Shown: positions 45,713 to 62,507 of the stretch, one piece after another
How the letters are laid out: every line of letters starts with the position of its first letter
Position numbering within the stretch: the first letter of the stretch is position 1
Origin: Roseobacter sp.
GTDB lineage: Bacteria; Pseudomonadota; Alphaproteobacteria; Rhodobacterales; Rhodobacteraceae
DNA: 64,000 nt
Assembly (NCBI GenBank): GCA_011050655.1
Contig: DRFG01000092.1
Coordinates: forward strand, 12,053-76,052
Direction: 5' to 3'
Program-made: the position numbers and the translations under genes
The notes under the pieces: generated by a model
Database searches by the model: none
What the model saw: only the letters and a program-made list of their open reading frames with translations
What the model was told of the DNA's origin: nothing

Positions 45713-45846
45713 TCAATACGACGATGTAGTGGTCCACATAATTTTGATCTGCTACCGCAAAATCTGCCAATTTGAGCCAATATTAATTGCTTAGTATCCG
45801 GCTTGCCACGCTATATTTAACATAAGATTGATTATGCGAGATCTTT

Positions 45847-45876
45847 CAATAATATATTTAGAGTTGCAATAATATA
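45847..45876. repeat. 10-bp direct repeat CAATAATATA x2 in an AT-rich gap
   Basis: Copies at 45847-45856 and 45867-45876 (20-bp period). Confidence 0.6.
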
Positions 45877-45922
45877 CTACAGGAGTTATGCTGATTTCAC
45901 CCTACTCGATAGGATGCTTCAC

Positions 45923-46669
45923 ATGCTTCGCACATTTCGAAAATACTCAATTGTCGCCGTACTTGCACTTGTTGGTTCGTCTGTGGGCCTTGCCAATCGT
46001 GTTCAGGCTCAAACGTATCAGATCGACTGCGCAATATTACTGTGCCTCTCTGGCGGCTGGCCAACATCAGTTCCATGTGCCCGTGCACGCGCCGAATTCA
46101 TCCGCCGGATCACGCCTTGGCCCGTTGAACCGCCATTGCAGATTTGGCGGTGCCCGATGGGCGCATCCTATGATCCGGTTACCCCGTCGGATCATCGAGG
46201 TCGTTTTTACAATATTCTGTTCACTAGTCAGGATCGCCCGCGACCGCTTTTGTCGCCTGCAACCAAACCTCTGCCTTCTGAAAATGCCGTTTTCGACATT
46301 GCCGGACCAAAGCCTCACCCGCTTCCGGAAGGATTTGCGCTCCAGTTGGTCCAAGACCGCGCTGACATCGACATCAGCGGCCCCGAATTCAACTTTGTAC
46401 GCTCAATCCGCGTCTACGATGTCAGATACGCACGCCAAAACGAGTCTGGCCGTGACGGAGATTGCAACCGATCCGCAACCATTTACCTTGGCACCTATGG
46501 AACCCAAGGTGATTTTTCATGGGCTCGGTCGGCTCCAGCAGCTCTACCCGAGGCACATATTGGCCTTGAAAGATGGGGGTACAATTGCCCGAGTATTTAC
46601 CATAGATCAGTCTTCGTTGATTGGCGCGACTATGAAGGAAACTACGGCTTCGAACAGGTCAATTACTGA
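45923..46669 (+). CDS. Secreted Cys-rich hypothetical protein, TrbM/KikA-like
   Basis: Sec signal ending VQA; IDCAILLCLSGGWP...PC...EPPLQIWRCPM. ATG 45923 follows AGGA. The family link is tentative. Confidence 0.6.
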   Translation: MLRTFRKYSIVAVLALVGSSVGLANRVQAQTYQIDCAILLCLSGGWPTSVPCARARAEFIRRITPWPVEPPLQIWRCPMGASYDPVTPSDHRGRFYNILFTSQDRPRPLLSPATKPLPSENAVFDIAGPKPHPLPEGFALQLVQDRADIDISGPEFNFVRSIRVYDVRYARQNESGRDGDCNRSATIYLGTYGTQGDFSWARSAPAALPEAHIGLERWGYNCPSIYHRSVFVDWRDYEGNYGFEQVNY

Positions 46670-46929
46670 CGGAGCATAAGGGCTATTACTTAGTCGAAAC
46701 TCATCAGACGACAGCCCAGCAGTCTATCGGTAACGATAACTAGGAATTATGGTGACAAGTCGCATATCGTAACTTACGAAAACCCGACAAAGTATACCTT
46801 CAGCTACGGCTAGAACAAAAAGTGAAAACATCTACGCCTTCGGATTGAAAATTTGCGCAGAGTGGGGTACATCTTGGGGTCCTGCGGCCCCGACTCACAA
46901 TATGGGCCGAAAATCATGAGGTCTCTACC

Positions 46930-47565
46930 TTGGCTGAACATGAGTACTCCGTTGTCGGTCACAGCCGATCCAAAATTGGGATGTGGATATCCTTTGCAGC
47001 TGGCCTGATCGCGGGCGGGCTAGTCGTCGGTGTCGGCCTGCTGCTTGCATTGGCAGAAGATCGTGGTCTGATAGATGTGCCTGAAATTGTCTTCTGGCCA
47101 TTGACTGGGGCCGCTGTTTTCGGTGCTCTTTTCTTGCTTTTTGACCGATCTGGATGGCGTTGGAAGGGTGTCCGTTCGGTGGTTGGCATTCCCGACATAT
47201 CAGGATCATGGGATCTAGAAGGCAAATCGTATGACCAGGATAACGAACCTCAATGGGACTGGGCGGGAAAGATCGAGATCACACAGCACTATGAGCGAAT
47301 ATTCGTTTGGCTAAAGACAGCGCAAAGCCAGTCTCATAGCGTTTCAGCGGCCATCCTGCCTGAAGGTCGCGCTGGATTCAGACTAATCTATAGCTACCGC
47401 AATCAACCAAAACCAGGTGAGGCGGAGCTTCAGGCACACATAGGTCACTGCGACCTGTTGTTCGCACCTGATCTCCAAACGGCCGAGGGATCGTATTTCA
47501 ATGGCGGCGGCCGCTTCACGCATGGAACTATGAATTTGAAAAGGAGAGCGCCGGATGCCGCTTGA
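46930..47565 (+). CDS. cap15: CBASS 2TM/beta-strand-rich effector
   Basis: Two N-terminal TM helices; FDRSGWRW..VGIPDISGSW; beta-rich C-domain (IEITQ..IFVWL, LIYSYRNQP, LQAHIG, GSYF). Overlaps a CD-NTase. Confidence 0.78.
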   Translation: MAEHEYSVVGHSRSKIGMWISFAAGLIAGGLVVGVGLLLALAEDRGLIDVPEIVFWPLTGAAVFGALFLLFDRSGWRWKGVRSVVGIPDISGSWDLEGKSYDQDNEPQWDWAGKIEITQHYERIFVWLKTAQSQSHSVSAAILPEGRAGFRLIYSYRNQPKPGEAELQAHIGHCDLLFAPDLQTAEGSYFNGGGRFTHGTMNLKRRAPDAA

Positions 47566-48667
47566 TTTTGACGAACGACTTTCGCGGCTCCGTTCGCGCC
47601 GAATGGATGACAATAACACCGTCCTCATGTCTGCCGGGTATGGCGAAGCCTATGAGAAGAGAACGGCCAACAAGGCAACGAAGTATGCTTTAGGATCGAT
47701 GCAGGAGGTCGATCCACGGTCCACGCAGATTTCGCATGAAGAAGCAGAGAAAGTTGAACGAAACCTAAGTGAAGGGCTTCGCGATGAGCATCTCTATCCG
47801 GAATTCAAACTTCAAGGTTCCGTCCCGCTTAATGTCCATATCCGAGGTGCCAGCGACGTTGATCTTCTTGTAATGGAAGGGCGTTGTTTGCGTGTGAGCC
47901 CGTGCGTAAGCAGTCTGAAATCCTACGTCGATTTCTCGGGAAATGTGAAAGACACCGTTTTAGACCTGCGGCGCAAATCAGAAATTGTCCTAGATCGACG
48001 CTTCTGGGGTGCGACTGTCGATAAAACACCCGCGAAATCCATTGCACTCAGCGATGGCGGTTTCAGACGTAAAGTAGATGTCGTTCCAGCTAACTGGCTT
48101 GACTCGGCAGACTATCAGCGGTCTCTTGATGAAGCGTCTCGCGGCGTAGAAATCGTCAACAAATACACTCTGGAGCATATTGAAAATTATCCATTTCGGT
48201 ACATTGCTGAAATTGAGGCAAAGGCGGGATTGACGAACGACGGAGCGCGTATGGGTATCAGGTTGGCCAAGAACCTCAAAAACGACTCTGATGCCGACAT
48301 CGAGCTGAGCAGCTACGATATCGGTAGCCTGATCTACCATTGCCCCAGCCACTATATTACCCACCAAGTAGCGCGCGATCTGATGGTACTGTCAGGTGTT
48401 GAACGCTGGCTTGATGAATTAAGCAAAGATCGTAGTACGGCGATTGCTCTCATGACCCCGGACAAGACCCGCAGGATTCTCGATGAGGACGCAAAGTGGA
48501 CAGGGCTGCTTCGTCTAGCCAACGATGTCACAGACTTAGCAAAAGCTGTCGAGAAGGAACTCGTCGGACCCTACTATTTCGACCATTCAGACAGAGAGAC
48601 TATCCGGAAGCATCTTAACGAGAATGCCATCCCGCTTGCACCAGAATTTGTGGGTTCGAGATTTTGA
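47555..48667 (+). CDS. cGAS/DncV-like nucleotidyltransferase (CD-NTase)
   Basis: QGSVPLNVHIRGASDVDLL (GS..DxD), KSIAL, KVDVVPANW, ENYPF, IRLAKNLK, LSSYDIGSL. Confidence 0.85.
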   Translation: MPLDFDERLSRLRSRRMDDNNTVLMSAGYGEAYEKRTANKATKYALGSMQEVDPRSTQISHEEAEKVERNLSEGLRDEHLYPEFKLQGSVPLNVHIRGASDVDLLVMEGRCLRVSPCVSSLKSYVDFSGNVKDTVLDLRRKSEIVLDRRFWGATVDKTPAKSIALSDGGFRRKVDVVPANWLDSADYQRSLDEASRGVEIVNKYTLEHIENYPFRYIAEIEAKAGLTNDGARMGIRLAKNLKNDSDADIELSSYDIGSLIYHCPSHYITHQVARDLMVLSGVERWLDELSKDRSTAIALMTPDKTRRILDEDAKWTGLLRLANDVTDLAKAVEKELVGPYYFDHSDRETIRKHLNENAIPLAPEFVGSRF

Positions 48668-48694
48668 TAAGGTGAAATAGACAGGAGCTTCTGC

Positions 48695-49357
48695 TTGCAA
48701 CAAAAATCAAAGACAGATTTTCTACGGGGCGTTCGCGAATTCAACCCAAGTGCGTATGGAAAGCCGGGTACAGCGCAGGAAGTGGCACGCTTGAAAGCCA
48801 AAATTGATGACTATGATGCACAATCTGGAGGAACCTGGAACTACGATAGCCTATACTCGACGTGCATATCCTATCTAAAAGGCATTCCCCACGAGCAGGC
48901 TGAGAAATTTCTGGAGTCTCTTGATGGTCCCGGCGAGGCCAAAGCAAAGCTGTCGATTTTCAATGCGCTGTGCAAGTCAATACCTTTTGATCGAGCGCAA
49001 CATGTTGAAGATGGTCGCAAGACGGTTTCTTTCGGTAAACGACAGGCAACTATCGCACCAGATTTTAGCTATAAGACAGATAAAGGTGTGTTTTGTGTTT
49101 TCGTCTATCCCTATAAACAACCAGCCCTTAAGCAAAACCAGCGGATGGCGATAGTCAGCACACTTGCGTCGCCACCTCATTCCGAGCCACACTTTCTCCA
49201 ACTTGTCGAATATTCCGAGGTAGCGGGACAGCGTCGCGTCGCGATTGAAACGTTTGAATTTTCTTACCGAAGCCTAGGCGACGACTTCTTACTGCACATG
49301 TCTGGTTTTTACGAAGTTCTGGATACTTCTTCGGGCACAGGCGACCTCTTCGGCTGA
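48695..49357 (+). CDS. Hypothetical protein (220 aa) downstream of the CD-NTase
   Basis: TTG start 7 nt after CAGGAG; 27-nt gap from the CD-NTase stop; soluble, no TM segment; no family recognised. Confidence 0.7.
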   Translation: MQQKSKTDFLRGVREFNPSAYGKPGTAQEVARLKAKIDDYDAQSGGTWNYDSLYSTCISYLKGIPHEQAEKFLESLDGPGEAKAKLSIFNALCKSIPFDRAQHVEDGRKTVSFGKRQATIAPDFSYKTDKGVFCVFVYPYKQPALKQNQRMAIVSTLASPPHSEPHFLQLVEYSEVAGQRRVAIETFEFSYRSLGDDFLLHMSGFYEVLDTSSGTGDLFG

Positions 49358-49427
49358 TAGTGTTGAACTCTGCTTTCCTGTTTCCATACCAGTTTACAAG
49401 AGTAAATCCGGGGCCTACTCAAACCTG

Positions 49428-52400
49428 TCAGTCTGGCATGTTCACGACAGTCACCCCCTTGATGGTGTCGCGTGCCAATTCGACCAGATGGGCGTGATGC
49501 GTGAAGAGGATTGCCTGTCCGTTCGTGCCGATCCCGGCACAAAGCCGCAAGGCCGCTCGCGCGCGCGTATCGTCAAAGGTTTCCATGATGTCGTCAAGGA
49601 TCATCGGCAGTGGGCCCGGCTCGCGGGCAAAGCTGCGATATCCAGCGAGGCGCAGCGCAAAATACAACTGACCCATTGTGCCCGTTGACATCTGTTCAAC
49701 AGGAACCGTGCTGCCGTCAGGTTGGATACCGACGAGCTTTTCGCCTTCCGCCTGGCTCCAAACATCAACTCCTTTCCACTTGGGAGCGGTCATGGTGACA
49801 AAGGCCTCTTCGACGTCGCGCAGCATGCCGCTGCGCCGCTCTGCCGCGAGTCGACGCAGCGCCCCGCGCGACGCCAGCACCCCGAACCGAGCTACAGCCG
49901 CCTGACGCGCGCCGCTCCGGAGTTCTTCTAGCAGTGTCGCCTGTTCGGTGGCGAGATCGCTGCGGTCGGCAGCCTCAAAAGCTTCGCGATACAGGCGGGC
50001 AGCCTCGCGCTGCGCGTCTCGGGCCGTATCGCGGGAGTCCTGCGCATCTTTCAACGCCTGTTCCAGCTCTGCTGCGCGTGTGGCGTCCGGCATCCGGTCC
50101 AGTTCCTCTGCAAAGAGATCGGCGTCTACACTATCACGGGCCTTCTGCCGATCGCGGTCCGCCGTTGCCTTATCTGCGCGCAGACGATCACGTTCAACCA
50201 ACTTTGCGACCCTGTCGCGCGGCGCGAGGTCTTGCCCGCCCTGCCCATTGAAGCAGCCATCTAGGTCACCGATTGCAGCTTGAAGTTCGGTCTTTGCGCG
50301 GCTTTTTAAGCTGGCGGTTTCATCGCGTCGCGATGTGGCCTCAGCTCGTTTTTCGTCAGCCCGCATGGATGCCGCCACGCGCACACGCGCACGGTCGATG
50401 ACTCGAACGGGGTCGATATCAGGCTCTTCCTCAGGATCATCCAAAATCTGATTCAGACTCTGCGCGCCATCGGCAAGGGCGGCAACCGCCTTCTCTAAGG
50501 CCTCGATCCGAGCGGAAAGCTTTTGATGCTCGCCATAAAGCTGCTGCAGGCTGCGTAGGTGCGGCAAAGCGGCTCGAATTGCCTCAAGAGAGTGATCAGG
50601 CAGAGGCAGCGCCGCAGTCAACCGGTCAAGCTTCCCCTGCGCCGTTTCGCAGTCGGTTCGGCATTCCTCCGACTTGCTGTCTAGCTTGGCTATAGTCTTC
50701 TCGCCGTCCTGCCATTTGGCCCAAGCCTTGCGATCACTATCCTCCAACGTCAATGCGCGTTGTACCTGAGTGGGTAGAGCACCTTTCGCAGGGTCAAGTC
50801 CAAGGGGCCGCGCAGCACCAATCAGCGCGTCGCGGGCCGCCTCCTGATGGGCAAGACGGGCTCTTAACGCTTCTTTCGCATTGGAATGATCGGCAGCAGC
50901 TTCGGCCGCTGCGTTCAGTGTCTGCTGGCGCGCGCTGAAGGCTGAGGGGGCCGCGTCTTCTTCCAATCCTAGTGCAAGCGCCAATCTGGAACAGCGCTCC
51001 GACAGGCGGTCACAGAGAGTGACCAGGTCGTCGTGACGCGTCTTTGCGGTTCCATGCCTTGCGTCGGCGGTCCGCTCCTGACTTTGTGCCGCGAGCAGTC
51101 GCTGCCGAGCCTCTGCGCCGGTCAGGTAATGCGCACGGGTGCCATCATCAGCATACATCGCCGCCTCGAATTGATCCGCGGTCTTGGTGGTCAGATCGCC
51201 CCGGTGCTGCTGCCATACCATGTCACGCCGACGCCGGGTCTCTTCGGTTATGACGATGTCAACAGCGTCAGGTGCAGCCTCATGCGCGGAAAGGTCGCCC
51301 CGCGCCTCGGCCAGTTCTGCCGCGCGCGCGTCGAGGTCATTGCTCGCCGACGCAAGGTCGGCGGCCAGGGCCGCCCAATTCCGACCGACTTCGTCGAGCG
51401 TTTCGCGCGTCGGAAGGCCCTCGGAGATCAGTTCTTTCCAGGACCCCGGCAGACCAGCAGTGACCTTAGTCAGACGCGCCAAAGCTTGGCTTTGATCAGT
51501 CTCTAACGCGGTAAGATCGGCCACAGTCTTCCAAAGATCGAAGGCGGCTCGCAGCGCAGTCAAGTCTTGCGGTTCAGCGGGCGCATCGCCCTGTTGGACG
51601 CGGGCTGCTTCGACGGCCTTTCGCGCGGCGTCCGCTGAAATACTAGCGGTCAAGCACTCCTGGACTGCAGCCGCGAGATGCTCAAGAACGCTTGCCTCCA
51701 AGGCAATTGTGGATGCCGGCGCATCTGGCACCTGGAGGAGCCGCAAAACGGTGTCTATTTGGCTACTGAGTTTTTCCTGATCTTCGCTGCGCCGGGCAAG
51801 ATCGGCCCGCGCAGTGCTGGCCCGCCCCATCAGCGGCGCTCCGTCGATGGTCAGTTGATCGAGCCGTTCCAACTCTGCCGTCAACAGTTGGGCCAGCATG
51901 TCGACCGGATTGTCTGCGATGATCAGATCTTGCTTGGTGATCTCTTCTTCCGCCTCCATGATCCGGATCGTTTGCGCCGCGATTTTTTCGACAAGGCCCG
52001 CCACGCGCTCTGCCGCGCCAGGAGGAAGCTCGGGGCCGTCGGGGAAATCGACCAAGGCCTCTGTCAGCTGCCCTATCTCCTCGGTCCGATCGTACCAGAC
52101 CTCTGCGGCTTTCGACGCAGCTTGTCTTTGATGGGCTTGCCGAAGCTCGGCATCGACCCCCTCAAACTCCGCCGCAGCCCGGTCCCGATCATGACGCAGG
52201 TTGCGATCTCGCTCGGTCGTCAGGCGATCAGCCCTCAGCTCGCGACCAATCTCTTTCAGGCGGTCACTGCCTGTTTTAAGAGCGTTCCCTCGACCGCGTT
52301 TCTTGTGAAATTTGTCGGCCCGCTCCGCCAACGCGTCCAGCGTTTGTGCCATGCCTGTCAGGCCAGAGAGACCCGCATGCAGGAGCTGGCCAAGGTCCCC

Positions 52401-52835
52401 TTGCGCCCCGGCGATCCGTTCTCCGCCTTCCCGCAAACCCTTTTCGTTGAGCGAAAACCGCTCCTCGTATGTATCTCGCGTCAAGCCGTGCAAAGCACCC
52501 GACAAGATCGCCTCGTTTATTGGGCGGTCATTTGCGTCCAACAGCGATTGGGACCTCTTGCTATTTCGGCGCAAAGCCAAGGCCCCGCGCCCAGGCAGGT
52601 CAAGTTCTGCTCCCACCAAAAGATCACTTCGGTCGAAACGAAAGGCATAAGGGTGCGCCCCTCCTTTGAACCCGAAGAGCAATTCCAGAAAGGCGTGATA
52701 GGCCGTGGACTTGCCCGCCTCGTTCGGACCAAAGATCACTGTCACGTCGGACACGCCTTCGTCACGCTTTGGAAAGGCAATCTCGGCGTCTTTGAAACGG
52801 CCATAGCGGATCAGGTCTAACCGGTTCAGCCTCAT
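49428..52835 (-). CDS. Rad50/SMC-like ATPase with long coiled coil (YhaN/AAA_27 type)
   Basis: Walker A GPNEAGKST; ~800 aa of heptad-rich coil; signature MSTGTMGQLYFALRL; Walker B ILDD; LFTHH. Confidence 0.85.
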   Translation of the reverse strand: MRLNRLDLIRYGRFKDAEIAFPKRDEGVSDVTVIFGPNEAGKSTAYHAFLELLFGFKGGAHPYAFRFDRSDLLVGAELDLPGRGALALRRNSKRSQSLLDANDRPINEAILSGALHGLTRDTYEERFSLNEKGLREGGERIAGAQGDLGQLLHAGLSGLTGMAQTLDALAERADKFHKKRGRGNALKTGSDRLKEIGRELRADRLTTERDRNLRHDRDRAAAEFEGVDAELRQAHQRQAASKAAEVWYDRTEEIGQLTEALVDFPDGPELPPGAAERVAGLVEKIAAQTIRIMEAEEEITKQDLIIADNPVDMLAQLLTAELERLDQLTIDGAPLMGRASTARADLARRSEDQEKLSSQIDTVLRLLQVPDAPASTIALEASVLEHLAAAVQECLTASISADAARKAVEAARVQQGDAPAEPQDLTALRAAFDLWKTVADLTALETDQSQALARLTKVTAGLPGSWKELISEGLPTRETLDEVGRNWAALAADLASASNDLDARAAELAEARGDLSAHEAAPDAVDIVITEETRRRRDMVWQQHRGDLTTKTADQFEAAMYADDGTRAHYLTGAEARQRLLAAQSQERTADARHGTAKTRHDDLVTLCDRLSERCSRLALALGLEEDAAPSAFSARQQTLNAAAEAAADHSNAKEALRARLAHQEAARDALIGAARPLGLDPAKGALPTQVQRALTLEDSDRKAWAKWQDGEKTIAKLDSKSEECRTDCETAQGKLDRLTAALPLPDHSLEAIRAALPHLRSLQQLYGEHQKLSARIEALEKAVAALADGAQSLNQILDDPEEEPDIDPVRVIDRARVRVAASMRADEKRAEATSRRDETASLKSRAKTELQAAIGDLDGCFNGQGGQDLAPRDRVAKLVERDRLRADKATADRDRQKARDSVDADLFAEELDRMPDATRAAELEQALKDAQDSRDTARDAQREAARLYREAFEAADRSDLATEQATLLEELRSGARQAAVARFGVLASRGALRRLAAERRSGMLRDVEEAFVTMTAPKWKGVDVWSQAEGEKLVGIQPDGSTVPVEQMSTGTMGQLYFALRLAGYRSFAREPGPLPMILDDIMETFDDTRARAALRLCAGIGTNGQAILFTHHAHLVELARDTIKGVTVVNMPD

Positions 52836-54013
52836 TGCGAGGCCCCCGCGTGCAATGTCAGAGAGACTTCCGCAATCGCTTCCTCCAGAAGCGCATCCAG
52901 CCCGCCCTCATCCAACTCGTCCATGATTTCGGATGGCAGGGCGAGGCGTAATTCTTCAAGCTGTTGCAGGGCGGCCTGTCGAAAGCCTTCTTCGGCCAGT
53001 TCGTCCTGCATGAGGCGGACGAGATCGTCGGTCTCGGCACCCGGTTTGCGGGGCGGCGGGGCAGATTTGACCTTATCGAGGAATACGCGATCAATGCTAT
53101 CCAGCACCTCTGCCGCCAGTTCCGTCACCAGTTCTGTCCCATGGCGATCCGAGGTGACGTGCAGGCGCACCGCCACATCGCGTCCCGGCACTTGCGCGGA
53201 AATGAATGCGTCGCGCAAGCTGAGCAGGACCTCCTGTTGGTCAGAACAGGTTCGCAAATCCAGCGCGCATTCGGAAAAGCCAAGGTAGCCAATGGCGCGG
53301 CGTTCGAATTCCGGCGCACCCTCGCTCAGGGACACAAAGGTCACGGAGCCACCGTTGCGCTCACCAAAGTGACGCGGCTGCGGGATACCGGGCATGACCG
53401 CCAGAACCGATCCATCGAGCCGCTCAAAAGGCGCATGAATGTGCCCGAGACACCAGAGGTCGTACCCATGCGCCATCAGGTCCCGTTCGGCGCAGGGTGC
53501 GTAGGGATCATGACCCTGAGCACCGTCAAGTGAGGTATGCATCAGCCCCACGTTGCGCTTGCCCGGCACCGGTCGCGGATAATCGGGAAGGAAGCTCTTC
53601 GCCACATGGGCCGCATCGAAGGAGAGGCCATGGAAAGCCGTTCCGCCGATCTCGACCGTTGGTGCGCCCTTGTGCAGCAGATGGATGTTTGGCCCCAAAT
53701 CTCCATGCGCCTTGTGATCTAACAGCGCATCGTGGTTACCCCTGATCAGCACCGTGGGCACACCAGCTTCGGATGCACGCGCCAACTGGGCAATCAGGAA
53801 GGCGCGGGATTTCAGGTCCGGGTAACCATTGTCAAAGATGTCGCCCGCCAGAACCAACGCATCGACCTGTTCCGATATCGCCAGATCGATGATCTCGGCA
53901 AAAGTGTCGCGGCTGGCCTGTTTCAGCCGGTCGCCGAGGTCGGGGTTGCGTAACGCCACGGATCGGATGGGTGATCCCAGGTGAATATCAGCGGTAACGA
54001 GGAGGCGCATCAT
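52832..54013 (-). CDS. Mre11/SbcD-like metallophosphoesterase nuclease (YhaO type)
   Basis: TADIHLG, LAGDIFD, IRGNHD, GLMHTS, LGHIH, PGIPQPR. 4-nt overlap with the ATPase gene. Confidence 0.88.
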   Translation of the reverse strand: MMRLLVTADIHLGSPIRSVALRNPDLGDRLKQASRDTFAEIIDLAISEQVDALVLAGDIFDNGYPDLKSRAFLIAQLARASEAGVPTVLIRGNHDALLDHKAHGDLGPNIHLLHKGAPTVEIGGTAFHGLSFDAAHVAKSFLPDYPRPVPGKRNVGLMHTSLDGAQGHDPYAPCAERDLMAHGYDLWCLGHIHAPFERLDGSVLAVMPGIPQPRHFGERNGGSVTFVSLSEGAPEFERRAIGYLGFSECALDLRTCSDQQEVLLSLRDAFISAQVPGRDVAVRLHVTSDRHGTELVTELAAEVLDSIDRVFLDKVKSAPPPRKPGAETDDLVRLMQDELAEEGFRQAALQQLEELRLALPSEIMDELDEGGLDALLEEAIAEVSLTLHAGASQ

Positions 54014-54308
54014 ATTCCGTACGTATTCCCGCGAATGATGCGGCTTCTGCTTCTACATATTCCATTTAACACCTGTTTTTCGCCTTGTCGTTGTTCCTCA
54101 AAGTAGCGATCTGCTATTTGCGGCCGCTTGTTTAACGTGCAGTGGATGACCGCTCCAAATCTAAACCGCTCCTGCAGTAGCGCCCCTTCGCCGCGCTACT
54201 TCACATGATAATTCCCAGAAAACTGACTTTAGGAGCTATCGTGCCCAATGACTACAGACTCCCGAATTCACTGTTTTCATGCCCCACAAGTCAAATAACT
54301 GCAGCGGT

Positions 54309-56189
54309 TTATTCTCCAACTCCCGCGATCATTTGTGTAATGGTTGCTAGCCAACCTCTAATCTCGTTGTCCGGGTCAGTTTGAGCCAGTCTTGCAACGG
54401 TCATCTGGCTTACTGCACCACTGTTAAGTAGCCGCTTTGCTTTGCTTTCCTTCTTTCGCCTCTTTTCATCATCAAGGCTGCCCCATGGATCACCGCCATT
54501 GGCTCCGTGAACAGCTTGAGCCACCATTGAGGGTACATCATCGAAATCGGCAAACGGTCCAGGGAAGGTGATGGTAATTTGGTTTTGAGCATAAGCTTCG
54601 CAAATCGCATCGTGGTGGAGATAACTTTCAAGTTCTCGTTTTTGTGTCGCCACTGCTTGACAGCCAATGCGCGCATTGATGGCAGCTATGTGCGCTGCAT
54701 ATTTTGGATCTGCTGGGGGCTGGTTGTCCCGATCGCACATATGAAACTCGGGTCTATTAAAAGGAGCAAGGCGGGAAGCCCAAAGAGCCAAATTGCTGCC
54801 GCCGAGGGGTACGAATATCAGCTCGCCGTCCAGTTCCAATTGTTCAAGGTCTAGTACGTCTTCGCCAGCCGCATTGAGAATTCGCGAAATTCCCTTGAGG
54901 AAAGTTATGTCGTGAGGCCCTTCTACTCCAACGAATACCTTAACATTATGGTCGGGCAGTACGCCAAGAGATTTGGCGATATCCTCAGATGTGGCTGGAC
55001 TTCCCTCGATGATTTCCCGACTTCCATCATCCGCTCGCTTTATGAACCGCAGGTTATCCTCATCAAGGTATCGAGCGAGCATCGGTGTGTGTGTGGTCAC
55101 GATCACCTGCCTGCCCTCGCCGGTAGAAAGGTCTCGAAGAGCATTGAGAAGCAGCCGTTGATTTCGGGGATGTTGACTCGTTTCAGGTTCTTCGATGGCG
55201 TAGATGACTGAACTGGCGTTCTTTGCAGACGCATCTTTTTCCGCTTTCGCCCTAAAAAAATTAAGCAAGACAAGGCGCTTGACGCCACTCCCTCTTTTAT
55301 TGAGCGGTATACCCTCATCACCCGTAATGCTCGTGGAGAAAAGAGTGTCCCATTTTCTGGTGGAAACAACCGGGTTTAGTGTCTCGGCAATAGTAGGGTC
55401 CATTTCACGAAGCTTTTCAACGGTTGCCTTCGCTATTTTACTCACTTCAGATTCAACGAAGTCTTGGACCTTTTGAAGCTCCGCTTCAACAGACTTGACC
55501 GCCTCCCGAATCGCGGCTTTGAGAGGGTCCTGTGCTTCAGCATCTTGATCGGTACTTGCCCGATCCGATTTGAAGAGTGCGAAAGTTGGGAGATAGGGTT
55601 GCAATGCGGCCCAGACCTGCTTTCCTCCCTCTGCGTCCAGCGGCACAGCTACTTCAGCCTTTTTCAAGTCCGCACATGACGCCCATATAGCTGCGCGCAC
55701 AAGGGCGTTCACGCGCTTGTCAATCCCATCTAGGTCAACGCCAAGGTCAGCTGCTCGCTTCGCCAACTCAGCTTTTTTCAGCGAAAGCAGATCATCGTAA
55801 CCTTCAACTGTTGGGTGCTCAGCTAGGGCGACAATGGATGTCACACTCGGAGTACCGATGCTTCCATTGTAAGTCTTCTGAATGACCAAGTTGCCAGTTG
55901 GACCAAGCAAGTGTTCCGCCAAGAGCGTGGTTGGAAAATCGGTGTCTACAATTAACCTACTAGGAGTGCTATCGAATTCGCAGGTAATGCGCATCTGCTT
56001 CGGATCGCCCGATTTACAAGCATCGTCCTTGTCGGGTTTGGCAGACTCAAAGAAAACTGCGAGTGCGTCCATCAGCGTCGATTTTCCAACGTCGTTTCGG
56101 CCGACCAATGCAGTTAGGTTTCCAAATTGGACTGAAATGGGCGTTGAGTAGCAGCGAAAATTTTCAACAGTCAGGCCAACTAATTTCAT
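54309..56189 (-). CDS. OLD-family ABC-ATPase plus TOPRIM nuclease
   Basis: ENFRCY, GRNDVGKST, KRGSGVKR, AIEEPETSQHP, VTTHTP. TOPRIM VGVEGPHD and CDRD (DxD); RELESYL. Confidence 0.85.
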   Translation of the reverse strand: MKLVGLTVENFRCYSTPISVQFGNLTALVGRNDVGKSTLMDALAVFFESAKPDKDDACKSGDPKQMRITCEFDSTPSRLIVDTDFPTTLLAEHLLGPTGNLVIQKTYNGSIGTPSVTSIVALAEHPTVEGYDDLLSLKKAELAKRAADLGVDLDGIDKRVNALVRAAIWASCADLKKAEVAVPLDAEGGKQVWAALQPYLPTFALFKSDRASTDQDAEAQDPLKAAIREAVKSVEAELQKVQDFVESEVSKIAKATVEKLREMDPTIAETLNPVVSTRKWDTLFSTSITGDEGIPLNKRGSGVKRLVLLNFFRAKAEKDASAKNASSVIYAIEEPETSQHPRNQRLLLNALRDLSTGEGRQVIVTTHTPMLARYLDEDNLRFIKRADDGSREIIEGSPATSEDIAKSLGVLPDHNVKVFVGVEGPHDITFLKGISRILNAAGEDVLDLEQLELDGELIFVPLGGSNLALWASRLAPFNRPEFHMCDRDNQPPADPKYAAHIAAINARIGCQAVATQKRELESYLHHDAICEAYAQNQITITFPGPFADFDDVPSMVAQAVHGANGGDPWGSLDDEKRRKKESKAKRLLNSGAVSQMTVARLAQTDPDNEIRGWLATITQMIAGVGE

Positions 56190-56357: not shown

Positions 56358-58532
56358 CTACACTTTGGAAACTATCAGACCAACAATGTCCGACAATAAG
56401 TGAAGTGCCAGTTTGGAGGAAGCTGCATCCAGCGCCCGAAGATCAGCCGTCAGATAAGGATGAAACTTCTCCGACATAAGGTTTCCGACACCTATAAAGA
56501 GATCAACCGCTTCGCCTGACGCAATCCTCTCCAATACCATTTGAAGAGGCGGTGTTTCATCGCCTCCTTCCACCTGTAAGAACCCATCGTATTGCTCTAC
56601 GGAAAACCCAAAACTTCTCAGCGCAAGCGCTAGGGTCGTCGTTTTCATAGTCCCTACCCGGGTTGCGATGATTGAGGTTTCTTCGCCCAAATTGACAAGC
56701 GACGCGTTAGCAAACCCCATCTGCGCATAGTTCAACCGCGCTTCCTCAAGCATTTCAAGCGCATTCGCGTCCATGTAGAGGGGTTTGGTATCAGCTTCCA
56801 ACACGTCGAACATGCGCTCGATTACCTCGTCATGGATTTCACCCGGATCTCCACCGAACACAGGCGGCACACCTGCTTTGGCAGGTTTGACCATAATTAC
56901 CTTTTCTCGGTCATGGATTTCCTGAACCAGCCAACGGCGTCCGGAAAAGATGAGCATCATCCCGGGTGAGAGGATGTTGTCGATTGGCAATGTCCCAAGA
57001 TCCCGTCCGTTTGAAACCAGCCTGTATTCTTCGGGCGTCTTGAACACCGCGTAAAAGCTATAATGCTCGACTAGCCGCTCTCCGTTTTGGCCCAAGAGTA
57101 ACAAACCACCGTCCGTTTGCTCTATCAAGCCCGTTTCAGGATGACCGAGCGCGCGCAGCACGTCAGTGAACATTGCTGGGGTGACCTGCCGAAACGGACC
57201 TTCCCGACACAGCACGCTGTATAGAATATTGGCTGGTGCCCCTCCCCTCTGCGCGATTACGGATAGGATCTGATGCACAAGTGTCGACAGATGCAGCGCT
57301 TGCGGCTTTGGTGGTTCGCACCAGCCCTCCAGCAACAGATCAATCATCGCAATAGACCGGATCAAGCCTAATCTCAGACGATCCACAAAGCTGCTATCCG
57401 AAGAGAGCCTCGTTTCTACCGCGTATTGTCGCAGGATCGCTGGCTGGCCCTCCCTACGTCCTGAACGTCCCAATCGCTGCCGCAGGGCTGCGACAGTGAA
57501 GGGTGCGCCGATTTGGGCGACACAGGTCACATCGCCGATGTCGATGCCAAGCTCTAGTGTGGACGTGCAGACAGCCGTAGTCGGTTTGCTGCTGTCTTTC
57601 AGACGCCGTTCAACAAAATCACGGTGGTCGCGTGAAAGGCTAGCATGGTGCGGATAAAACTCTTGGGGTAGATGCTCTTGCTCGCACAGATTGCGCAGTC
57701 GGTCAGCGTAAATTTCAACACGTTGACGGGCACCGGCAAACACAAGATTGTCGCTTCCCCGTAGATGCTCGAACAAATGCGCTGCGACGGCATCTGTGGC
57801 AGATGGGGTGTTGTCGTCTTCTCCTCCGGGAAGATATCCACGCAGCTGAAGTTTCAGTTCCGCTTCTCCGCCCTCTGCTTCGATCAATGTGACGTGTTCC
57901 GCATTGTCAGGCCGCAGGTAAGCGCGGGCGAGGTCCATATCCCCAAGCGTCGCAGATAGTCCAATCCGGCGGATGGGCCTTTTGATTGCCAACTCAAGAC
58001 GTGTCAGCAGCGACCGCAATTGCACCCCGCGCTCACTATCGAGCACAGTGTGCAACTCATCAATCACCACAGCTCGGGTTGCACCGAACAGGCGCGCGAT
58101 TTCCAGGCCCCGACGGACGAACAATGCCTCCAGCGATTCTGGCGTGATGAGCAAAATCCCTTTGGGATTTTTCATCGCGCGCGTTTTGACTGATTGCGAC
58201 ACATCGCCGTGCCACGGCACCACTGGAAGCTCCGCCTCTTGACAGATGCCTTCTAGCCGCCCCGCCTGATCCGTGATCAGCGCCTTGAGTGGCCCGATGT
58301 AAAGCACGTCGAACCCGCCGCCCTCTGCGGGTGCATCCAGCACCTGAGAAATCAATGGAAAAAATGCGGCCTCTGTTTTACCACCGGCGGTCGATGCCGC
58401 GACGATGAGATCGTTGTCAGTTTCGTAAATAGTCCGAATTGCACGCGCCTGAATGTCGCGCAGCTCACGCCAGCCCTGCTGTCTGATCCACTTCTGGACG
58501 GGGCGGGAAAGTTGGTCAAAGGCGCTACTCAT
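56358..58532 (-). CDS. sngC: Shango SF2 DEAD/DEAH (Lhr-like) helicase
   Basis: ASTAGGKTEA, ITPESLE, IDELH, GLSATL, HHASL, CTSTLELGIDIG, QRLGRSGRR. Third gene of the TerB-ATPase-helicase triad. Confidence 0.82.
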   Translation of the reverse strand: MSSAFDQLSRPVQKWIRQQGWRELRDIQARAIRTIYETDNDLIVAASTAGGKTEAAFFPLISQVLDAPAEGGGFDVLYIGPLKALITDQAGRLEGICQEAELPVVPWHGDVSQSVKTRAMKNPKGILLITPESLEALFVRRGLEIARLFGATRAVVIDELHTVLDSERGVQLRSLLTRLELAIKRPIRRIGLSATLGDMDLARAYLRPDNAEHVTLIEAEGGEAELKLQLRGYLPGGEDDNTPSATDAVAAHLFEHLRGSDNLVFAGARQRVEIYADRLRNLCEQEHLPQEFYPHHASLSRDHRDFVERRLKDSSKPTTAVCTSTLELGIDIGDVTCVAQIGAPFTVAALRQRLGRSGRREGQPAILRQYAVETRLSSDSSFVDRLRLGLIRSIAMIDLLLEGWCEPPKPQALHLSTLVHQILSVIAQRGGAPANILYSVLCREGPFRQVTPAMFTDVLRALGHPETGLIEQTDGGLLLLGQNGERLVEHYSFYAVFKTPEEYRLVSNGRDLGTLPIDNILSPGMMLIFSGRRWLVQEIHDREKVIMVKPAKAGVPPVFGGDPGEIHDEVIERMFDVLEADTKPLYMDANALEMLEEARLNYAQMGFANASLVNLGEETSIIATRVGTMKTTTLALALRSFGFSVEQYDGFLQVEGGDETPPLQMVLERIASGEAVDLFIGVGNLMSEKFHPYLTADLRALDAASSKLALHLLSDIVGLIVSKV

Positions 58533-58541
58533 CCTCGAGGC

Positions 58542-59849
58542 TCAGAGCTTGAAGCTGATCAAATCGTCGTCACCATTAGGTTGAGCACCAGTCGTTTCCT
58601 CTACTTCGCTCATATCCTCGCCTCGGTCTTCTGAGACGTCGATTTTCTCGATCAGGTCACTCCATTCAACGCCTGGATTTTGCTCCAGCACGGACAGCAA
58701 ATTCACAAAAGCAGTGACGGTATTGCGCGGCGTCCTGAAATAGGCTTCCCCAATCCGATCAGAGCAATGGTTCATAAAGGCTTCCAGCGCTGTATCCGGC
58801 AAGGCAGTTTCATCATCCTGCATCACGCGTCTGACATTGGCCAACAGAACAAACAGATCTTCCGGCGTCAGGCTGGCCAGCCGCACAACCGGCCCCGACA
58901 AATCGACGAGCCCATCGCGGGCGAAGGTGTTTTCTGCCAACCGCGATTGCAGGGCTTCATAGCTATAAAGCCCACGGCGTGTGTTCATCAAAAACTCTGG
59001 CGTGCCTCCCATGAGAAACCCAAGATTCTCGGCACTGCCCTGAAGTACGTCGTTCAGAATCCGAAGAATCTGCTCGTAGTTCGCATTGCGCGCTTGGGAC
59101 GATGTCAGCTTGAACAGGTTCACCATTTCATCAAGGCCGACAAGTAGCCCTTTGTAACCCGCCTCGCACACAAATGCCGACATCAGCTTGAGATGATCGT
59201 AAACGCTCGCATCATCGACAATCGTGCGCACGCCAAGTGCTTTGCGCGCATCCGTGCGGGTTGCGAATTCTCCCCTCAGCCAACGAAGTGCTGCCGACTT
59301 AAGTTCGTCATCCCCGTTTTCATGGCCTTCCCAATACCGGCGAATGACCTCTGCAAATTCAAAACCGCCAGTGAGTTCTTCAAAATGGCCCAAGCGCTCG
59401 CGAATGATGGTGCCCGTAGGCACATCTTTTTCCTCGGCGTCTCGGTGCGCTTGGCTGACAAACCGCTCAACCACACTGGCCAAAGCACCACCATCTGGCT
59501 TTGTGCGCGTTGACAGGTTGCGCGCCATCTCTGCGTAGAGGCCGCGCGCTTGCCCACCTGTCGCGTGAATACGCCGGTCGGGTGCAAGATCAGCGAACAT
59601 CACCACAAGCCCTTTTTCTAAAGCTACCAGACGGATCAGATTCATAAAGAAGGTTTTGCCAGACCCATATTCCCCGATAACAAAACGGATGGCGGCGCCG
59701 CCATCCGCGATGCGCTCCATGTCCTTCACAAGTTCTTCGATCTCACGAACGCGCCCTACCTGAATATGACGAAGGCCCAATTTTGGCACGACCCCTGCCC
59801 GCAACGCCTGAACAATTGCATCGCGCTCACGTGGCTTCAATTTAGACAT
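58542..59849 (-). CDS. sngB: Shango ATPase (DUF2791/BrxD-like)
   Basis: LRAGVVP, IGEYGSGKTF, GLLVGLDEMVNL, GGTPEF, YSYEALQSRL. Confidence 0.82.
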   Translation of the reverse strand: MSKLKPRERDAIVQALRAGVVPKLGLRHIQVGRVREIEELVKDMERIADGGAAIRFVIGEYGSGKTFFMNLIRLVALEKGLVVMFADLAPDRRIHATGGQARGLYAEMARNLSTRTKPDGGALASVVERFVSQAHRDAEEKDVPTGTIIRERLGHFEELTGGFEFAEVIRRYWEGHENGDDELKSAALRWLRGEFATRTDARKALGVRTIVDDASVYDHLKLMSAFVCEAGYKGLLVGLDEMVNLFKLTSSQARNANYEQILRILNDVLQGSAENLGFLMGGTPEFLMNTRRGLYSYEALQSRLAENTFARDGLVDLSGPVVRLASLTPEDLFVLLANVRRVMQDDETALPDTALEAFMNHCSDRIGEAYFRTPRNTVTAFVNLLSVLEQNPGVEWSDLIEKIDVSEDRGEDMSEVEETTGAQPNGDDDLISFKL

Positions 59850-62373: not shown

Positions 62374-62507
62374 TAACGAAACCCTCTTTCGGAACACACT
62401 AGATTGCGTGATTTGCGATGCAATCACTATCGCTTAGGTAGAGGTACAGTTTTCCTTTTAAATTCAGCGCTATCTCCTTGCTCTACCGAAGTACAAAGCC
62501 GCTATAC

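What the first reader, a model, noticed from the sequence alone, without database searches (positions are those of the whole stretch)
48695..49357. Unknown third gene tightly linked to CBASS: candidate new ancillary protein or second effector
Seen: 27 nt after the CD-NTase stop, own RBS (CAGGAG), same strand, low GC like the cassette, and the last gene before the convergent block. It is not E1/E2, JAB, HORMA, TRIP13 or an exonuclease by motif. It has a beta-rich core TIAPDFSYKTDKGVFCVFVYPYK resembling a degenerate PD-(D/E)xK fold and ends in GDLFG, similar to beta-clamp-binding DLF motifs. Inference only: a nuclease-fold or SocB-like replication-blocking toxin, or a regulator/sensor of the cyclase. 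This would be a CBASS architecture I do not recognise.
Basis: partly seen in the sequence, partly recalled or inferred. Interest (0 to 1): 0.75.

Follow-up and report, generated by a model that had tools for sequence, protein, structure and literature searches.

The report
Stand-alone nuclease-fold gene beside swapped-in CBASS
The gene after the CBASS cyclase is real and conserved, but it is an independent, uncharacterised nuclease-fold gene of a Roseobacter plasmid defence island, and the two-gene CBASS cassette was swapped in next to it, so it is not a new CBASS component.

Summary
The ORF 48695-49357 (+) exists exactly as described: TTG start, AGGAG 6 nt upstream, 27 nt after the CD-NTase stop. 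It is under purifying selection (dN/dS about 0.09).

The CBASS link is an accident of cassette exchange. DNA homology to related elements starts at 48684, just before the RBS. In those elements the upstream slot holds either integrase plus XRE plus ImmA/IrrE peptidase, or a ThsB-like TIR plus SLOG cassette. The nearest Cap15 plus CD-NTase cassettes on other plasmids are two-gene units with no such third gene.

The protein belongs to a very rare family (26 clusters among 1.84 billion representatives). All named members are Rhodobacterales, and no Pfam, NCBIfam or PADLOC model matches.

A confident AlphaFold model (pLDDT 89) matches only PD-(D/E)xK nucleases (Cas4, RecE, lambda exonuclease). The canonical (D/E)xK strand motif is missing.

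Every full-length member carries a DLF-like peptide at either the N- or the C-terminus, never both. That marks a docking motif. Beta-clamp binding is plausible but untested, and only three of the five consensus positions fit.

Distant homologues are single-gene low-GC islets after parE or thyX. The parE site otherwise holds TIR and HEPN genes.

Best reading: an autonomous accessory gene, probably defence-type. Its mechanism is inferred.

The parts
48695..49357 (+). Gene X: 220-aa protein of a rare uncharacterised family with a PD-(D/E)xK-like fold. It behaves as an autonomous single-gene module.
   Evidence: ORF. dN/dS about 0.09. 26 representative clusters among 1.84 billion proteins. AlphaFold2 pLDDT 88.9, pTM 0.85. 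Foldseek matches are Cas4, RecE, lambda exonuclease and MGME1.
48684..48688 (+). Ribosome-binding site AGGAG of gene X. It is also the first base of DNA homology to related elements, that is, the right-hand breakpoint of the CBASS cassette.
   Evidence: Sequence. blastn homology to L001, L005 and L007 begins at 48684. The aligned junctions show a conserved RBS and TTG/GTG start with unrelated sequence upstream.
49340..49354 (+). Codons for the C-terminal peptide G-D-L-F-G (residues 216-220), a disordered terminal docking motif.
   Evidence: pLDDT is below 50 for residues 215-220. Every full-length family member has a [DGSA][LFI][FLI] peptide at the extreme N- or C-terminus, and the two positions are mutually exclusive.
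48935..49063 (+). Segment that spans the conserved polar core residues: E81 (near invariant) and K85 on the first core helix, and D123 at the start of a core strand.
   Evidence: Invariant columns of the 22-sequence alignment are W48, Y50, K85, D123, P139 and R180. E81 is conserved in at least 90%. Secondary structure comes from the model.
46740..48683 (+). Swapped-in type I CBASS cassette: Cap15 effector (46930-47565) and CD-NTase (47555-48667). It has no counterpart in most related elements.
   Evidence: Pfam and PADLOC hits. This stretch replaces L001 965-3758, which holds integrase, small ORFs, XRE and the M78 peptidase. The cassette is present with gene X only in pSMR1-4, at 97% nt identity.
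46728..46739 (+). Left arm (CGGTAACGATAA) of an inverted-repeat site. It marks the left-hand breakpoint of the cassette exchange.
   Evidence: The full site CGGTAACGATAA-GGAGGGGCCA-TTATCGTTACCG lies at L001 953-986, 72 nt before the integrase gene. Window homology to L001 ends exactly after the left arm.
49428..54013 (-). Convergent AAA_27 ATPase (49428-52835) and Metallophos nuclease (52832-54013), an SbcCD-like pair. It is co-inherited with gene X in most but not all elements.
   Evidence: Pfam hits. One continuous homology block 48684/48701-54050 with L001, L007, L009 and L103-L105. The pair is absent next to X in L005, L006 and L017.
45914..46669 (+). 251-aa ORF whose N-terminus looks like a signal peptide. 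It is the conserved left flank of the variable slot, and the island's left end lies near 45812-45817.
   Evidence: Homology to L001 32-964 and to L103 starts at 45812-45817. A contig of run X25 diverges before 45815. The signal-peptide reading is by eye from the translation.

Best explanation
Gene X is an autonomous single-gene accessory module of a defence island carried on Roseobacter (Rhodobacterales) MOBP plasmids. It is not part of CBASS.

How the adjacency arose: the slot upstream of X is a cargo-exchange site. In this element a two-gene Cap15 plus CD-NTase cassette replaced an integrase plus XRE plus ImmA/IrrE module. The replacement runs from an inverted-repeat recombination site on the left to the base before X's own RBS on the right. 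X therefore now sits 27 nt behind the cyclase and is probably read through from the CBASS promoter.

What the protein is: a diverged PD-(D/E)xK-fold domain (Cas4/RecE/lambda-exonuclease-like). It keeps an acidic residue and a lysine on the first core helix (E81, K85) and the strand aspartate (D123). It lacks the canonical (D/E)xK on the next strand. It ends in a flexible G-D-L-F-G tail.

Inferred mechanism: X acts on DNA, either as a non-canonical nuclease or as a nuclease-derived DNA binder. It is docked to a host partner through the terminal DLF peptide, and the replisome beta clamp is the best candidate. It serves as a stand-alone anti-phage or anti-plasmid (defence-type) function, as do the other single genes that occupy the same kinds of hotspot.

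Shown: the gene is real; it is independent of CBASS; the fold; the motif conservation; the hotspot and plasmid context. Inferred: DNA targeting, the identity of the docking partner, and the defence role.
For: Independence from CBASS:
- blastn homology to related loci covers 45817-46739 and then 48684-54109. It skips the CBASS genes exactly.
- L005 and L006 share only 48684-49357, which is X alone.
- Upstream cargo differs between elements: integrase plus XRE plus M78 peptidase in L001, L005-L008, L104 and L105; ThsB-like TIR plus SLOG plus a 484-aa gene in L009 and L010; CBASS only in the window and pSMR1-4.
- Downstream cargo also differs: Fic, AAA_13 and nSTAND3 in L005; DUF4238 in L017.
- Six nearest CD-NTase homologues on other plasmids have no X-family ORF within 3 kb.

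A real, selected gene: dN/dS is 0.07-0.14.

Fold: AlphaFold2 gives pLDDT 88.9. The leading Foldseek hits are nearly all PD-(D/E)xK nucleases: PDB Cas4 SSO0001 at 4.5e-4, plus RecE, lambda exonuclease, MGME1 and AddAB; BFVD phage Cas4/RecE-like proteins down to 1.6e-5 with TM 0.50.

Docking motif: the DLF-like peptide is at the N-terminus in some clades and at the C-terminus in others, never both, in all full-length members. The tail is predicted disordered.

Accessory and defence context:
- Window neighbours are CBASS, an AriA-like ATPase and Shango SngABC.
- Distant homologues are gene-sized low-GC islets (GC3 0.33-0.43, against 0.83-0.88 in the neighbours) directly after parE or thyX.
- The parE-downstream site in 64 other Rhodobacterales-like contigs never holds an X-family gene. 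About half of them carry a low-GC stretch there, and sampled genes from those stretches include TIR, HEPN_RiboL-PSP, HEPN and DUF4145.
- X is on conjugative or mobilizable plasmids.
Against: - No experiment or strand-specific expression data exist.
- The canonical (D/E)xK is absent: strand 132-138 reads VFCVFVY, followed by P139. Nuclease activity is therefore uncertain.
- Foldseek TM-scores are only 0.3-0.5.
- The DLF peptide matches only positions 3-5 of the clamp-binding consensus Q-aliphatic-x-[L/M]-[F/L]. The N-terminal versions (M-D-L-F-G) leave no room for the first two positions (PMC11139829).
- The defence role rests on guilt by association.
- X is co-inherited with the SbcCD-like pair in most elements, so some functional tie to that pair is not excluded.
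- In this element X has lost its native upstream spacer and is physically operonic with CBASS, so a secondary functional interaction cannot be ruled out.
Confidence: 0.55

Rival explanations
1. One reading: X is a CBASS ancillary protein or second effector. It would be activated by, or would regulate, the CD-NTase, giving a new three-gene CBASS architecture.
For: X lies 27 nt after the cyclase on the same strand, and no terminator-like site lies between them. The three genes are kept together at 97% nt identity on plasmid pSMR1-4. One RNA-seq contig (run X26) spans 47474-49589, covering the cyclase and X.
Against: X homologues are otherwise never next to a CD-NTase. The recombination breakpoint separates X from the cassette. 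The nearest Cap15 plus CD-NTase cassettes lack X. X matches no Cap family model. Cap15 already provides the effector. The RNA contig has no strand information, and DNA carry-over is not excluded.
Confidence: 0.04
2. X is a third component of the convergent AAA_27 plus Metallophos (SbcCD/YhaNO-like) module, for example a nuclease-fold specificity or recruitment subunit.
For: X, the AAA_27 ATPase and the Metallophos nuclease form one continuous homology block with similar divergence in the window, L001, L007-L014 and L103-L105. Both partners are DNA-end-processing-type proteins.
Against: X occurs without the pair in L005, L006 and L017 and in all chromosomal homologues. The orientation is convergent, so they do not form one operon. 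Base composition differs strongly, GC 0.48 against 0.61.
Confidence: 0.12
3. X is the regulated output of the XRE plus ImmA/IrrE switch of the plasmid or integrative module. On this view it is a life-cycle or stress-induced function such as DNA processing for element replication or transfer. In the window it is merely orphaned.
For: XRE, the M78 peptidase and X are syntenic in L001 and L005-L008, and they lie next to a tyrosine recombinase, ArdC and ParB-like genes in the plasmid loci L104 and L105. A conserved spacer of about 108 nt precedes X in the loci that carry XRE and the M78 peptidase.
Against: X persists under purifying selection without XRE and ImmA in the window, pSMR1-4 and L009-L014. 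Chromosomal homologues have no such regulators.
Confidence: 0.15
4. X is a selfish, free-standing homing-endonuclease-like gene. It would spread by cutting X-less alleles next to conserved genes. Its double-strand breaks would also explain the mosaic flanks.
For: It has a nuclease fold. Homologues are precise gene-sized low-GC islets right after parE (three loci) and thyX (two loci); both are gene types I recall as common hosts of homing endonucleases (own knowledge, not tested here). Presence is polymorphic, 0 of 64 other parE loci. Homology breakpoints hug both ends of X.
Against: The parE-downstream site is a general hotspot for many unrelated low-GC genes, so no target specificity is shown. 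The canonical catalytic motif is missing. No repeated target or insertion signature was found.
Confidence: 0.1
5. X-family proteins are housekeeping replication or Topo IV partners, and the plasmid copy is a captured host gene.
For: The gene follows parE after 0, 9 or 52 nt in Thalassovita, a TARA contig and Phaeobacter piscinae. The DLF peptide resembles part of a clamp-binding motif.
Against: None of 64 other Rhodobacterales-like parE loci has the gene. GC3 is 0.33-0.43, against 0.83-0.88 for parE and thyX. In Phaeobacter piscinae the gene lies after a hairpin that looks like the parE terminator. The family is extremely rare.
Confidence: 0.03

Closest known systems
Cas4 / RecB-like PD-(D/E)xK nucleases (Cas4 SSO0001, RecE, lambda exonuclease, MGME1, AddAB nuclease domains)
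   Same: They give the best structural matches in both Foldseek libraries. The size is similar (about 200-260 aa). The core has helices flanking a mixed sheet, an aspartate at the start of a core strand (D123) and an acidic residue on the first core helix (E81).
   Different: There is no sequence-level match to any Pfam, NCBIfam, PADLOC or PDB model. The (D/E)xK on the following strand is replaced by hydrophobic residues and an invariant proline. No four-cysteine cluster is present. TM-scores are only 0.3-0.5.
NucS/EndoMS (mismatch endonuclease with a RecB-like nuclease domain and a C-terminal clamp-binding peptide)
   Same: The concept is the same: a small PD-(D/E)xK-fold protein with a short terminal peptide that could tether it to the sliding clamp. 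I know this architecture from the literature; only the title and abstract of PMC6159515 were seen.
   Different: No homology was detected. X lacks the NucS N-terminal DNA-binding domain. Its peptide fits only part of the clamp-binding consensus. X is accessory and plasmid-borne, not a core repair gene.
Type I CBASS with Cap15 effector (two-gene Cap15 plus CD-NTase operons)
   Same: The two upstream genes are a standard example. Cap15 and the cyclase overlap by 11 nt, as in the related plasmid cassettes.
   Different: X is not part of that unit. It is absent from the other cassettes checked and is separated from this one by a recombination breakpoint.
Single-gene cargo of defence hotspots (stand-alone TIR, HEPN and DUF4145 proteins)
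   Same: X-family genes are low-GC single genes that occupy variable slots. One such slot, downstream of parE, otherwise holds TIR and HEPN genes. X itself sits in a plasmid island with CBASS, Shango and an AriA-like ATPase.
   Different: No defence phenotype is known, and the family is not in PADLOC.
SocB-type clamp-binding toxin (Caulobacter)
   Same: The only shared idea is a protein that might bind the beta clamp through a short motif.
   Different: No antitoxin or adaptor partner is conserved next to X. X is kept without its neighbouring regulators. The fold is nuclease-like. Homology to SocB was not tested because no SocB sequence was at hand.

Membership tests
CBASS ancillary or effector genes (Cap2/Cap3, HORMA/TRIP13, Cap4, Cap5, Cap15 and others) | Sequence membership in a known Cap family | tested here: not met
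   No PADLOC, Pfam or NCBIfam hit at E up to 1.
CBASS ancillary or effector genes | Homologues recur next to CD-NTases | tested here: not met
   Homologue contexts were examined in L001-L022 and L103-L105. Only the window and its near-identical pSMR1-4 have a CD-NTase.
CBASS ancillary or effector genes | Related CD-NTase cassettes carry the gene | tested here: not met
   Six nearest plasmid CD-NTase loci have no X-family ORF within 3 kb at E up to 1.
CBASS ancillary or effector genes | Co-inherited with the cyclase as one DNA cassette | tested here: not met
   The homology breakpoint lies at 48683/48684, between the cyclase stop and X's RBS.
CBASS ancillary or effector genes | Function depends on the cyclic nucleotide signal | not testable with these tools
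   This needs genetics or biochemistry.
PD-(D/E)xK nuclease superfamily | Restriction-endonuclease-like alpha/beta core fold | tested here: met
   The model has pLDDT 88.9. The leading Foldseek hits in PDB and BFVD are nearly all PD-(D/E)xK proteins, with E down to 1.6e-5 and TM up to 0.50.
PD-(D/E)xK nuclease superfamily | Catalytic signature: D on one strand, then (D/E)xK on the next strand | tested here: not met
   D123 is invariant, but the next strand (132-138) is hydrophobic and ends in the invariant P139. E81 and K85 on the preceding helix might substitute, which is an inference.
PD-(D/E)xK nuclease superfamily | Metal-dependent nuclease activity | not testable with these tools
   This needs an enzyme assay.
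Cas4 family | Profile-level sequence match, and a conserved four-cysteine Fe-S cluster | tested here: not met
   No Pfam hit for any of 22 members. X has three cysteines (C58, C93, C134), and none is an invariant column.
Beta-clamp-binding proteins (clamp-binding motif) | Motif Q-aliphatic-x-[L/M]-[F/L], or the hexamer variant | tested here: inconclusive
   T-G-D-L-F matches positions 3-5 only. The N-terminal versions start M-D-L-F. Consensus taken from PMC11139829.
Beta-clamp-binding proteins (clamp-binding motif) | Motif lies in a disordered terminal or loop region and is conserved | tested here: met
   pLDDT is below 50 for residues 215-220. The motif is present at one terminus in all full-length members.
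Beta-clamp-binding proteins (clamp-binding motif) | Physical binding to DnaN | not testable with these tools
   No complex prediction or binding assay was available.
Free-standing homing endonucleases | Insertion next to one specific conserved target gene, with presence/absence polymorphism | tested here: inconclusive
   Polymorphism is shown: 0 of 64 other parE loci carry the gene. The same site also holds many unrelated genes, so specificity is not shown.
Toxin-antitoxin pair (SocAB-like) | A conserved adjacent partner gene | tested here: not met
   Neighbours on both sides vary. Chromosomal homologues are solitary.

The most novel reading that the evidence does not exclude
The X family is a new single-gene immune (anti-phage or anti-plasmid) effector. 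It would be a nuclease-derived protein with a non-canonical active site, tethered to the replisome sliding clamp by a minimal DLF peptide that has moved between the N- and C-terminus during evolution. It would act on replicating foreign DNA. It would travel as a gene-sized cassette between plasmid defence islands and chromosomal hotspots such as the sites downstream of parE and thyX in Roseobacters.
Probability: 0.25. Interest if true: 0.65.

Novelty: new variant of a known kind. Interest (0 to 1): 0.4.

Why it matters
The proposed new CBASS architecture is not real, and that matters for anyone cataloguing CBASS types. Tight spacing and a shared strand here result from cassette exchange in a defence-island slot, not from a functional operon.

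What remains is modest but real. This is an undescribed, very rare Rhodobacterales protein family with a confident PD-(D/E)xK-like fold. It has an unusual conserved-residue pattern and a terminal DLF peptide whose position flips between termini. It is found only in places where defence-type cargo accumulates.

If the peptide binds the sliding clamp and the protein restricts foreign DNA, it would add a compact replisome-tethered effector to the list of defence genes.

The comparison also exposes two exchange sites that could be mined for further Roseobacter defence genes: the slot beside X on MOBP plasmids, and the site downstream of parE.

Tried and rejected
Searches that found nothing:
- Sequence searches of X against Pfam, NCBIfam, PADLOC and PDB gave nothing. 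PHROGs gave one marginal short hit (E 0.0011).
- A family profile against PDB gave only one chance-level hit. Per-member Pfam scans gave nothing.
- No hit in GenBank phages or IMG/VR contigs, so there is no sign of a phage origin.

Steps that needed repeating:
- The first AlphaFold run, on six close sequences, was weak (pLDDT 63). It was superseded by the 22-sequence run.
- A genome-collection scan with the divergent alignment failed for lack of a conserved stretch. The close-family scan found only one partial copy, in Sulfitobacter sp. EhC04.

Ideas tested and dropped or downgraded:
- Topo IV partner. This was prompted by three parE-adjacent homologues. I rejected it because 0 of 64 other parE loci carry the gene and its composition is foreign.
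- Homing endonuclease. This was prompted by the single-gene low-GC islets beside parE and thyX. I downgraded it because the parE site is a general hotspot with unrelated cargo.

Inconclusive evidence:
- Promoter and terminator scans around X were at or below chance level and are not informative.
- RNA evidence for co-transcription is inconclusive. One contig from an oligo-dT RNA-seq metagenome spans the cyclase and X, but it has no strand information. The same run also holds a 79-kb contig, so DNA carry-over is possible.

Full report
OBSERVATION

AGGAG lies at 48684-48688, 6 nt before the start. The upstream gene's stop codon ends at 48667, which leaves a 27-nt gap.

The two upstream genes are a Cap15-type effector and a CD-NTase:
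- The effector occupies 46930-47565. It matches Pfam Cap15_CD_rec at 3e-32 and a PADLOC 2TM effector model at 3e-75.
- The cyclase occupies 47555-48667. It matches a PADLOC cyclase model at 4e-121.
Together they form a type I CBASS.

Downstream, 70 nt after the stop, a convergent AAA_27 ATPase (49428-52835) and a Metallophos nuclease (52832-54013) begin.

The gene, called X here, has no hit in Pfam, PADLOC, NCBIfam or PDB sequences. It is a genuine coding gene. Against homologues that are 86-88% identical, dN/dS is 0.07-0.14. The RBS and the TTG/GTG start are conserved in position in seven related loci.

IS X PART OF CBASS? NO.

A word-indexed search of 5.8 billion proteins found only nine relatives. 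Their genomic contexts settle the question.

- In L001, L005, L006, L007 and L008, X follows an XRE-type HTH gene and an M78 (ImmA/IrrE) peptidase, near a tyrosine recombinase.
- The same order is annotated on Yoonia vestfoldensis plasmid pSMR4r-1 and Phaeobacter inhibens plasmid pP88_c. There the run reads ParB, DUF3768, ArdC-like, integrase, HTH, ImmA/IrrE, X, AAA ATPase, exonuclease.
- In L009-L011, X follows a ThsB-like TIR protein (PADLOC 2e-65), a SLOG-family protein and a 484-aa unknown.
- Only the window and Pseudosulfitobacter pseudonitzschiae plasmid pSMR1-4 have CBASS there. The plasmid is 97% identical in DNA over window 45812-54046.

DNA comparison shows where the exchange happened. 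Window homology to L001 covers 45817-46739 and then 48684-54109. The Cap15 plus CD-NTase segment (46740-48683) therefore replaces L001 965-3758, which holds the integrase, three small ORFs, XRE and M78. L005 and L006 share only 48684-49357, which is X alone.

The right breakpoint falls on the base before X's RBS. The left breakpoint falls after the left arm of an inverted repeat. In L001 that repeat is complete (CGGTAACGATAA-GGAGGGGCCA-TTATCGTTACCG) and lies 72 nt before the integrase gene.

The converse test agrees. The six nearest CD-NTase relatives on other plasmids are 38-42% identical. They come from Polymorphobacter, Rhizobium, Kosakonia, Bradyrhizobium, Pseudochrobactrum and Klebsiella. 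In four of them an annotated gene of about 210 aa precedes the cyclase, so they form a compact effector-cyclase unit. All six have unrelated genes downstream, and none has an X-family ORF within 3 kb.

It is met. In this element X has lost its native spacer of about 108 nt and is probably read through from CBASS. One unstranded RNA-seq contig spans 47474-49589, but DNA carry-over cannot be excluded.

WHAT IS X?

An exhaustive profile search of 1.84 billion representative proteins found only 26 clusters at E up to 0.001. All members that carry an organism name are Rhodobacterales: Phaeobacter, Jannaschia, Thalassovita, Sulfitobacter, Pseudosulfitobacter and Yoonia.

With a 22-sequence alignment, AlphaFold2 gives a confident model (pLDDT 88.9, pTM 0.85). 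Only the last six residues are disordered.

The leading Foldseek matches are nearly all PD-(D/E)xK nucleases:
- In the PDB: Cas4 SSO0001 (4.5e-4), RecE, lambda exonuclease, MGME1, AddAB and HincII.
- In BFVD: 29 hits below 1e-3, almost all phage PD-(D/E)xK/Cas4/RecE-like proteins. The best is 1.6e-5 with TM 0.50.

TM-scores of 0.3-0.5 mean that only the core is shared.

Invariant residues are W48, Y50, K85, D123, P139 and R180. E81 and K6 are nearly invariant. D123 sits where the PD aspartate is expected, and E81 lies on the preceding helix. The next strand reads VFCVFVY followed by P139, so there is no (D/E)xK. Catalysis, if any, must use a non-canonical arrangement. K85 from the helix is a candidate, which is an inference.

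THE TERMINAL PEPTIDE

All full-length members carry a [DGSA][LFI][FLI] peptide at one extreme terminus:
- C-terminal forms include GDLFG, GDLFS, DDLFGG, GSLI, GSLL, PELI, GLFDSQ and GFFDV.
- N-terminal forms include MDLFG, MDIFG, MAFFG, MADLFG, MFDLFD, MTLFD and MSALFE.
No member has the peptide at both ends.

A motif that changes terminus between clades while the domain stays the same is the signature of a short docking peptide. It resembles the last three positions of the beta-clamp-binding consensus. That consensus is Q-aliphatic-x-[L/M][F/L], and such motifs can be N-terminal (Hda) or C-terminal (Pol II, Pol IV) (PMC11139829).

The peptide lacks the Gln and the aliphatic residue. The N-terminal versions have no room for them. 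Clamp binding is therefore a reasonable but unproven guess.

WHERE THE FAMILY LIVES

Distant homologues (19-30% identity, profile E-values 1e-23 to 1e-3) lie in two chromosomal settings:
- Directly after parE in Thalassovita mangrovi, a TARA contig and Phaeobacter piscinae.
- Directly after thyX in two long contigs.

I first read this as a replication link. Composition says otherwise. GC drops from 0.62-0.70 to 0.40-0.46 exactly over the gene and recovers at its end. GC3 is 0.33-0.43, against 0.83-0.88 for parE and thyX.

I then fetched 80 metagenomic Rhodobacterales-like parE loci. Of the 64 with at least 700 nt downstream, none has an X-family gene. About half have a low-GC stretch right after parE.

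Those stretches hold diverse single genes of about 200-280 aa. A sample of ten included TIR_2, HEPN_RiboL-PSP, HEPN, DUF4145 and DUF2971 proteins.

The parE-downstream site is therefore an accessory, defence-type hotspot, and X-family genes are one rare occupant. This rejects a Topo IV partnership. It also weakens a homing-endonuclease reading, because no target specificity is shown.

In the window, X sits in an island that starts near 45812-45817. The island contains:
- CBASS;
- the SbcCD-like pair;
- an AriA-like ATPase (54309-56189, PADLOC 3e-54);
- a complete Shango system (SngC 56358-58532, SngB 58542-59849, SngA 59842-62427);
- a HipA-like kinase.

Some island copies of X are broken. One carries an IS insertion (L008), and L007 and P0008 show a frameshift or truncation. 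X is therefore dispensable, as accessory genes are.

MECHANISM, WITH CONFIDENCE

Shown: X is an independent, selected, single-gene module of plasmid and hotspot cargo. It has a PD-(D/E)xK-like fold and a conserved terminal docking peptide.

Inferred: it acts on DNA, is recruited by the peptide (beta clamp as best candidate), and serves a defence-type role.

I put independence from CBASS above 0.9, the fold at about 0.85, a defence-type role at about 0.4-0.5, and clamp binding at about 0.3-0.4.

Rivals are: a tie to the co-inherited SbcCD-like pair, an output of the XRE/ImmA switch, a selfish nuclease, and the original CBASS-accessory idea. All are listed with their tests.

NOVELTY

The CBASS architecture is ordinary type I. 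X belongs to an undescribed family within a known fold class. I rate it a new variant of a known kind, of moderate interest.

Noticed in passing
window 56358-62427 (-): A complete Shango defence system. SngC is a DEAD helicase (PADLOC 2e-276), SngB is a BrxD-like ATPase (6e-176), and SngA is a TerB_N/TerB/TerB_C protein (5e-102).
   Followed up: partly
window 54309-56189 (-): An AAA_15 ATPase whose best PADLOC match is PARIS AriA (3e-54), with no obvious AriB beside it. It fills a second variable slot between the Metallophos gene and SngC. Other elements hold different cargo in that slot: DUF87 ATPase plus DUF4297 (L008, L009, L103-L105), or an OLD-like ATPase plus UvrD, which looks Gabija-like (L001).
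   Followed up: partly
window 62508-63980 (-): A HipA_C-domain kinase (Pfam 3e-38) at the end of the window. No PADLOC hit, and the partner gene was not examined.
   Followed up: no
window 46728-46739; L001 953-986: An inverted repeat, CGGTAACGATAA-GGAGGGGCCA-TTATCGTTACCG, lies just upstream of the tyrosine recombinase gene in related elements. The right arm is constant. The left flank differs between loci, with the switch at GATAA. The window keeps only the left arm. This looks like the recombinase's core site and the left edge of cargo exchange.
   Followed up: partly
L023-L102 (metagenomic parE loci), directly after the parE stop: In about half of 64 Rhodobacterales-like contigs a low-GC stretch follows parE. 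These stretches hold unrelated single genes. A sample of ten included TIR_2, HEPN_RiboL-PSP, HEPN, DUF4145, DUF2971 and a weak DNA methylase match. This is an apparent defence-islet hotspot.
   Followed up: partly
L018 8001-8660; L021 6001-6663: X-family homologues also sit as sharp low-GC islets after thyX, beyond two hairpins, in two syntenic chromosomal contigs. Whether this site is also a general hotspot was not tested.
   Followed up: no
L009 164-3413; L010 402-3651: A three-gene cassette occupies the same slot as CBASS: a ThsB-like TIR protein, a 201-aa SLOG (LD_cluster3) protein and a 484-aa protein with no family hit. It may be an undescribed TIR-SLOG system.
   Followed up: partly
L008 4343-6242; L007 9184-9813; L022 about 9800-10000: Several copies of X or its upstream region are disrupted. 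An IS3-type element (HTH_Tnp_1 plus rve) splits X in L008. X in L007 has a frameshifted C-terminus. In Sulfitobacter sp. EhC04 (L022) a transposase-like reading frame (read by eye, not tested) abuts the upstream spacer.
   Followed up: partly
window 1-45000: The rest of the window encodes ordinary catabolism: methylcrotonyl-CoA carboxylase-like subunits, acyl-CoA dehydrogenase, methylmalonyl-CoA mutase with MeaB, and acetyl-CoA synthetase-like enzymes. GC is 0.58. The island starting near 45812 therefore abuts metabolic cargo of a chromosome, chromid or large plasmid.
   Followed up: partly
protein P0025 (4875 aa, from the representative library): A giant protein gives nine separate matches to residues 98-135 of the X profile, the beta-hairpin region (E 3e-13). 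It is probably a repetitive beta-rich protein and was not examined.
   Followed up: no
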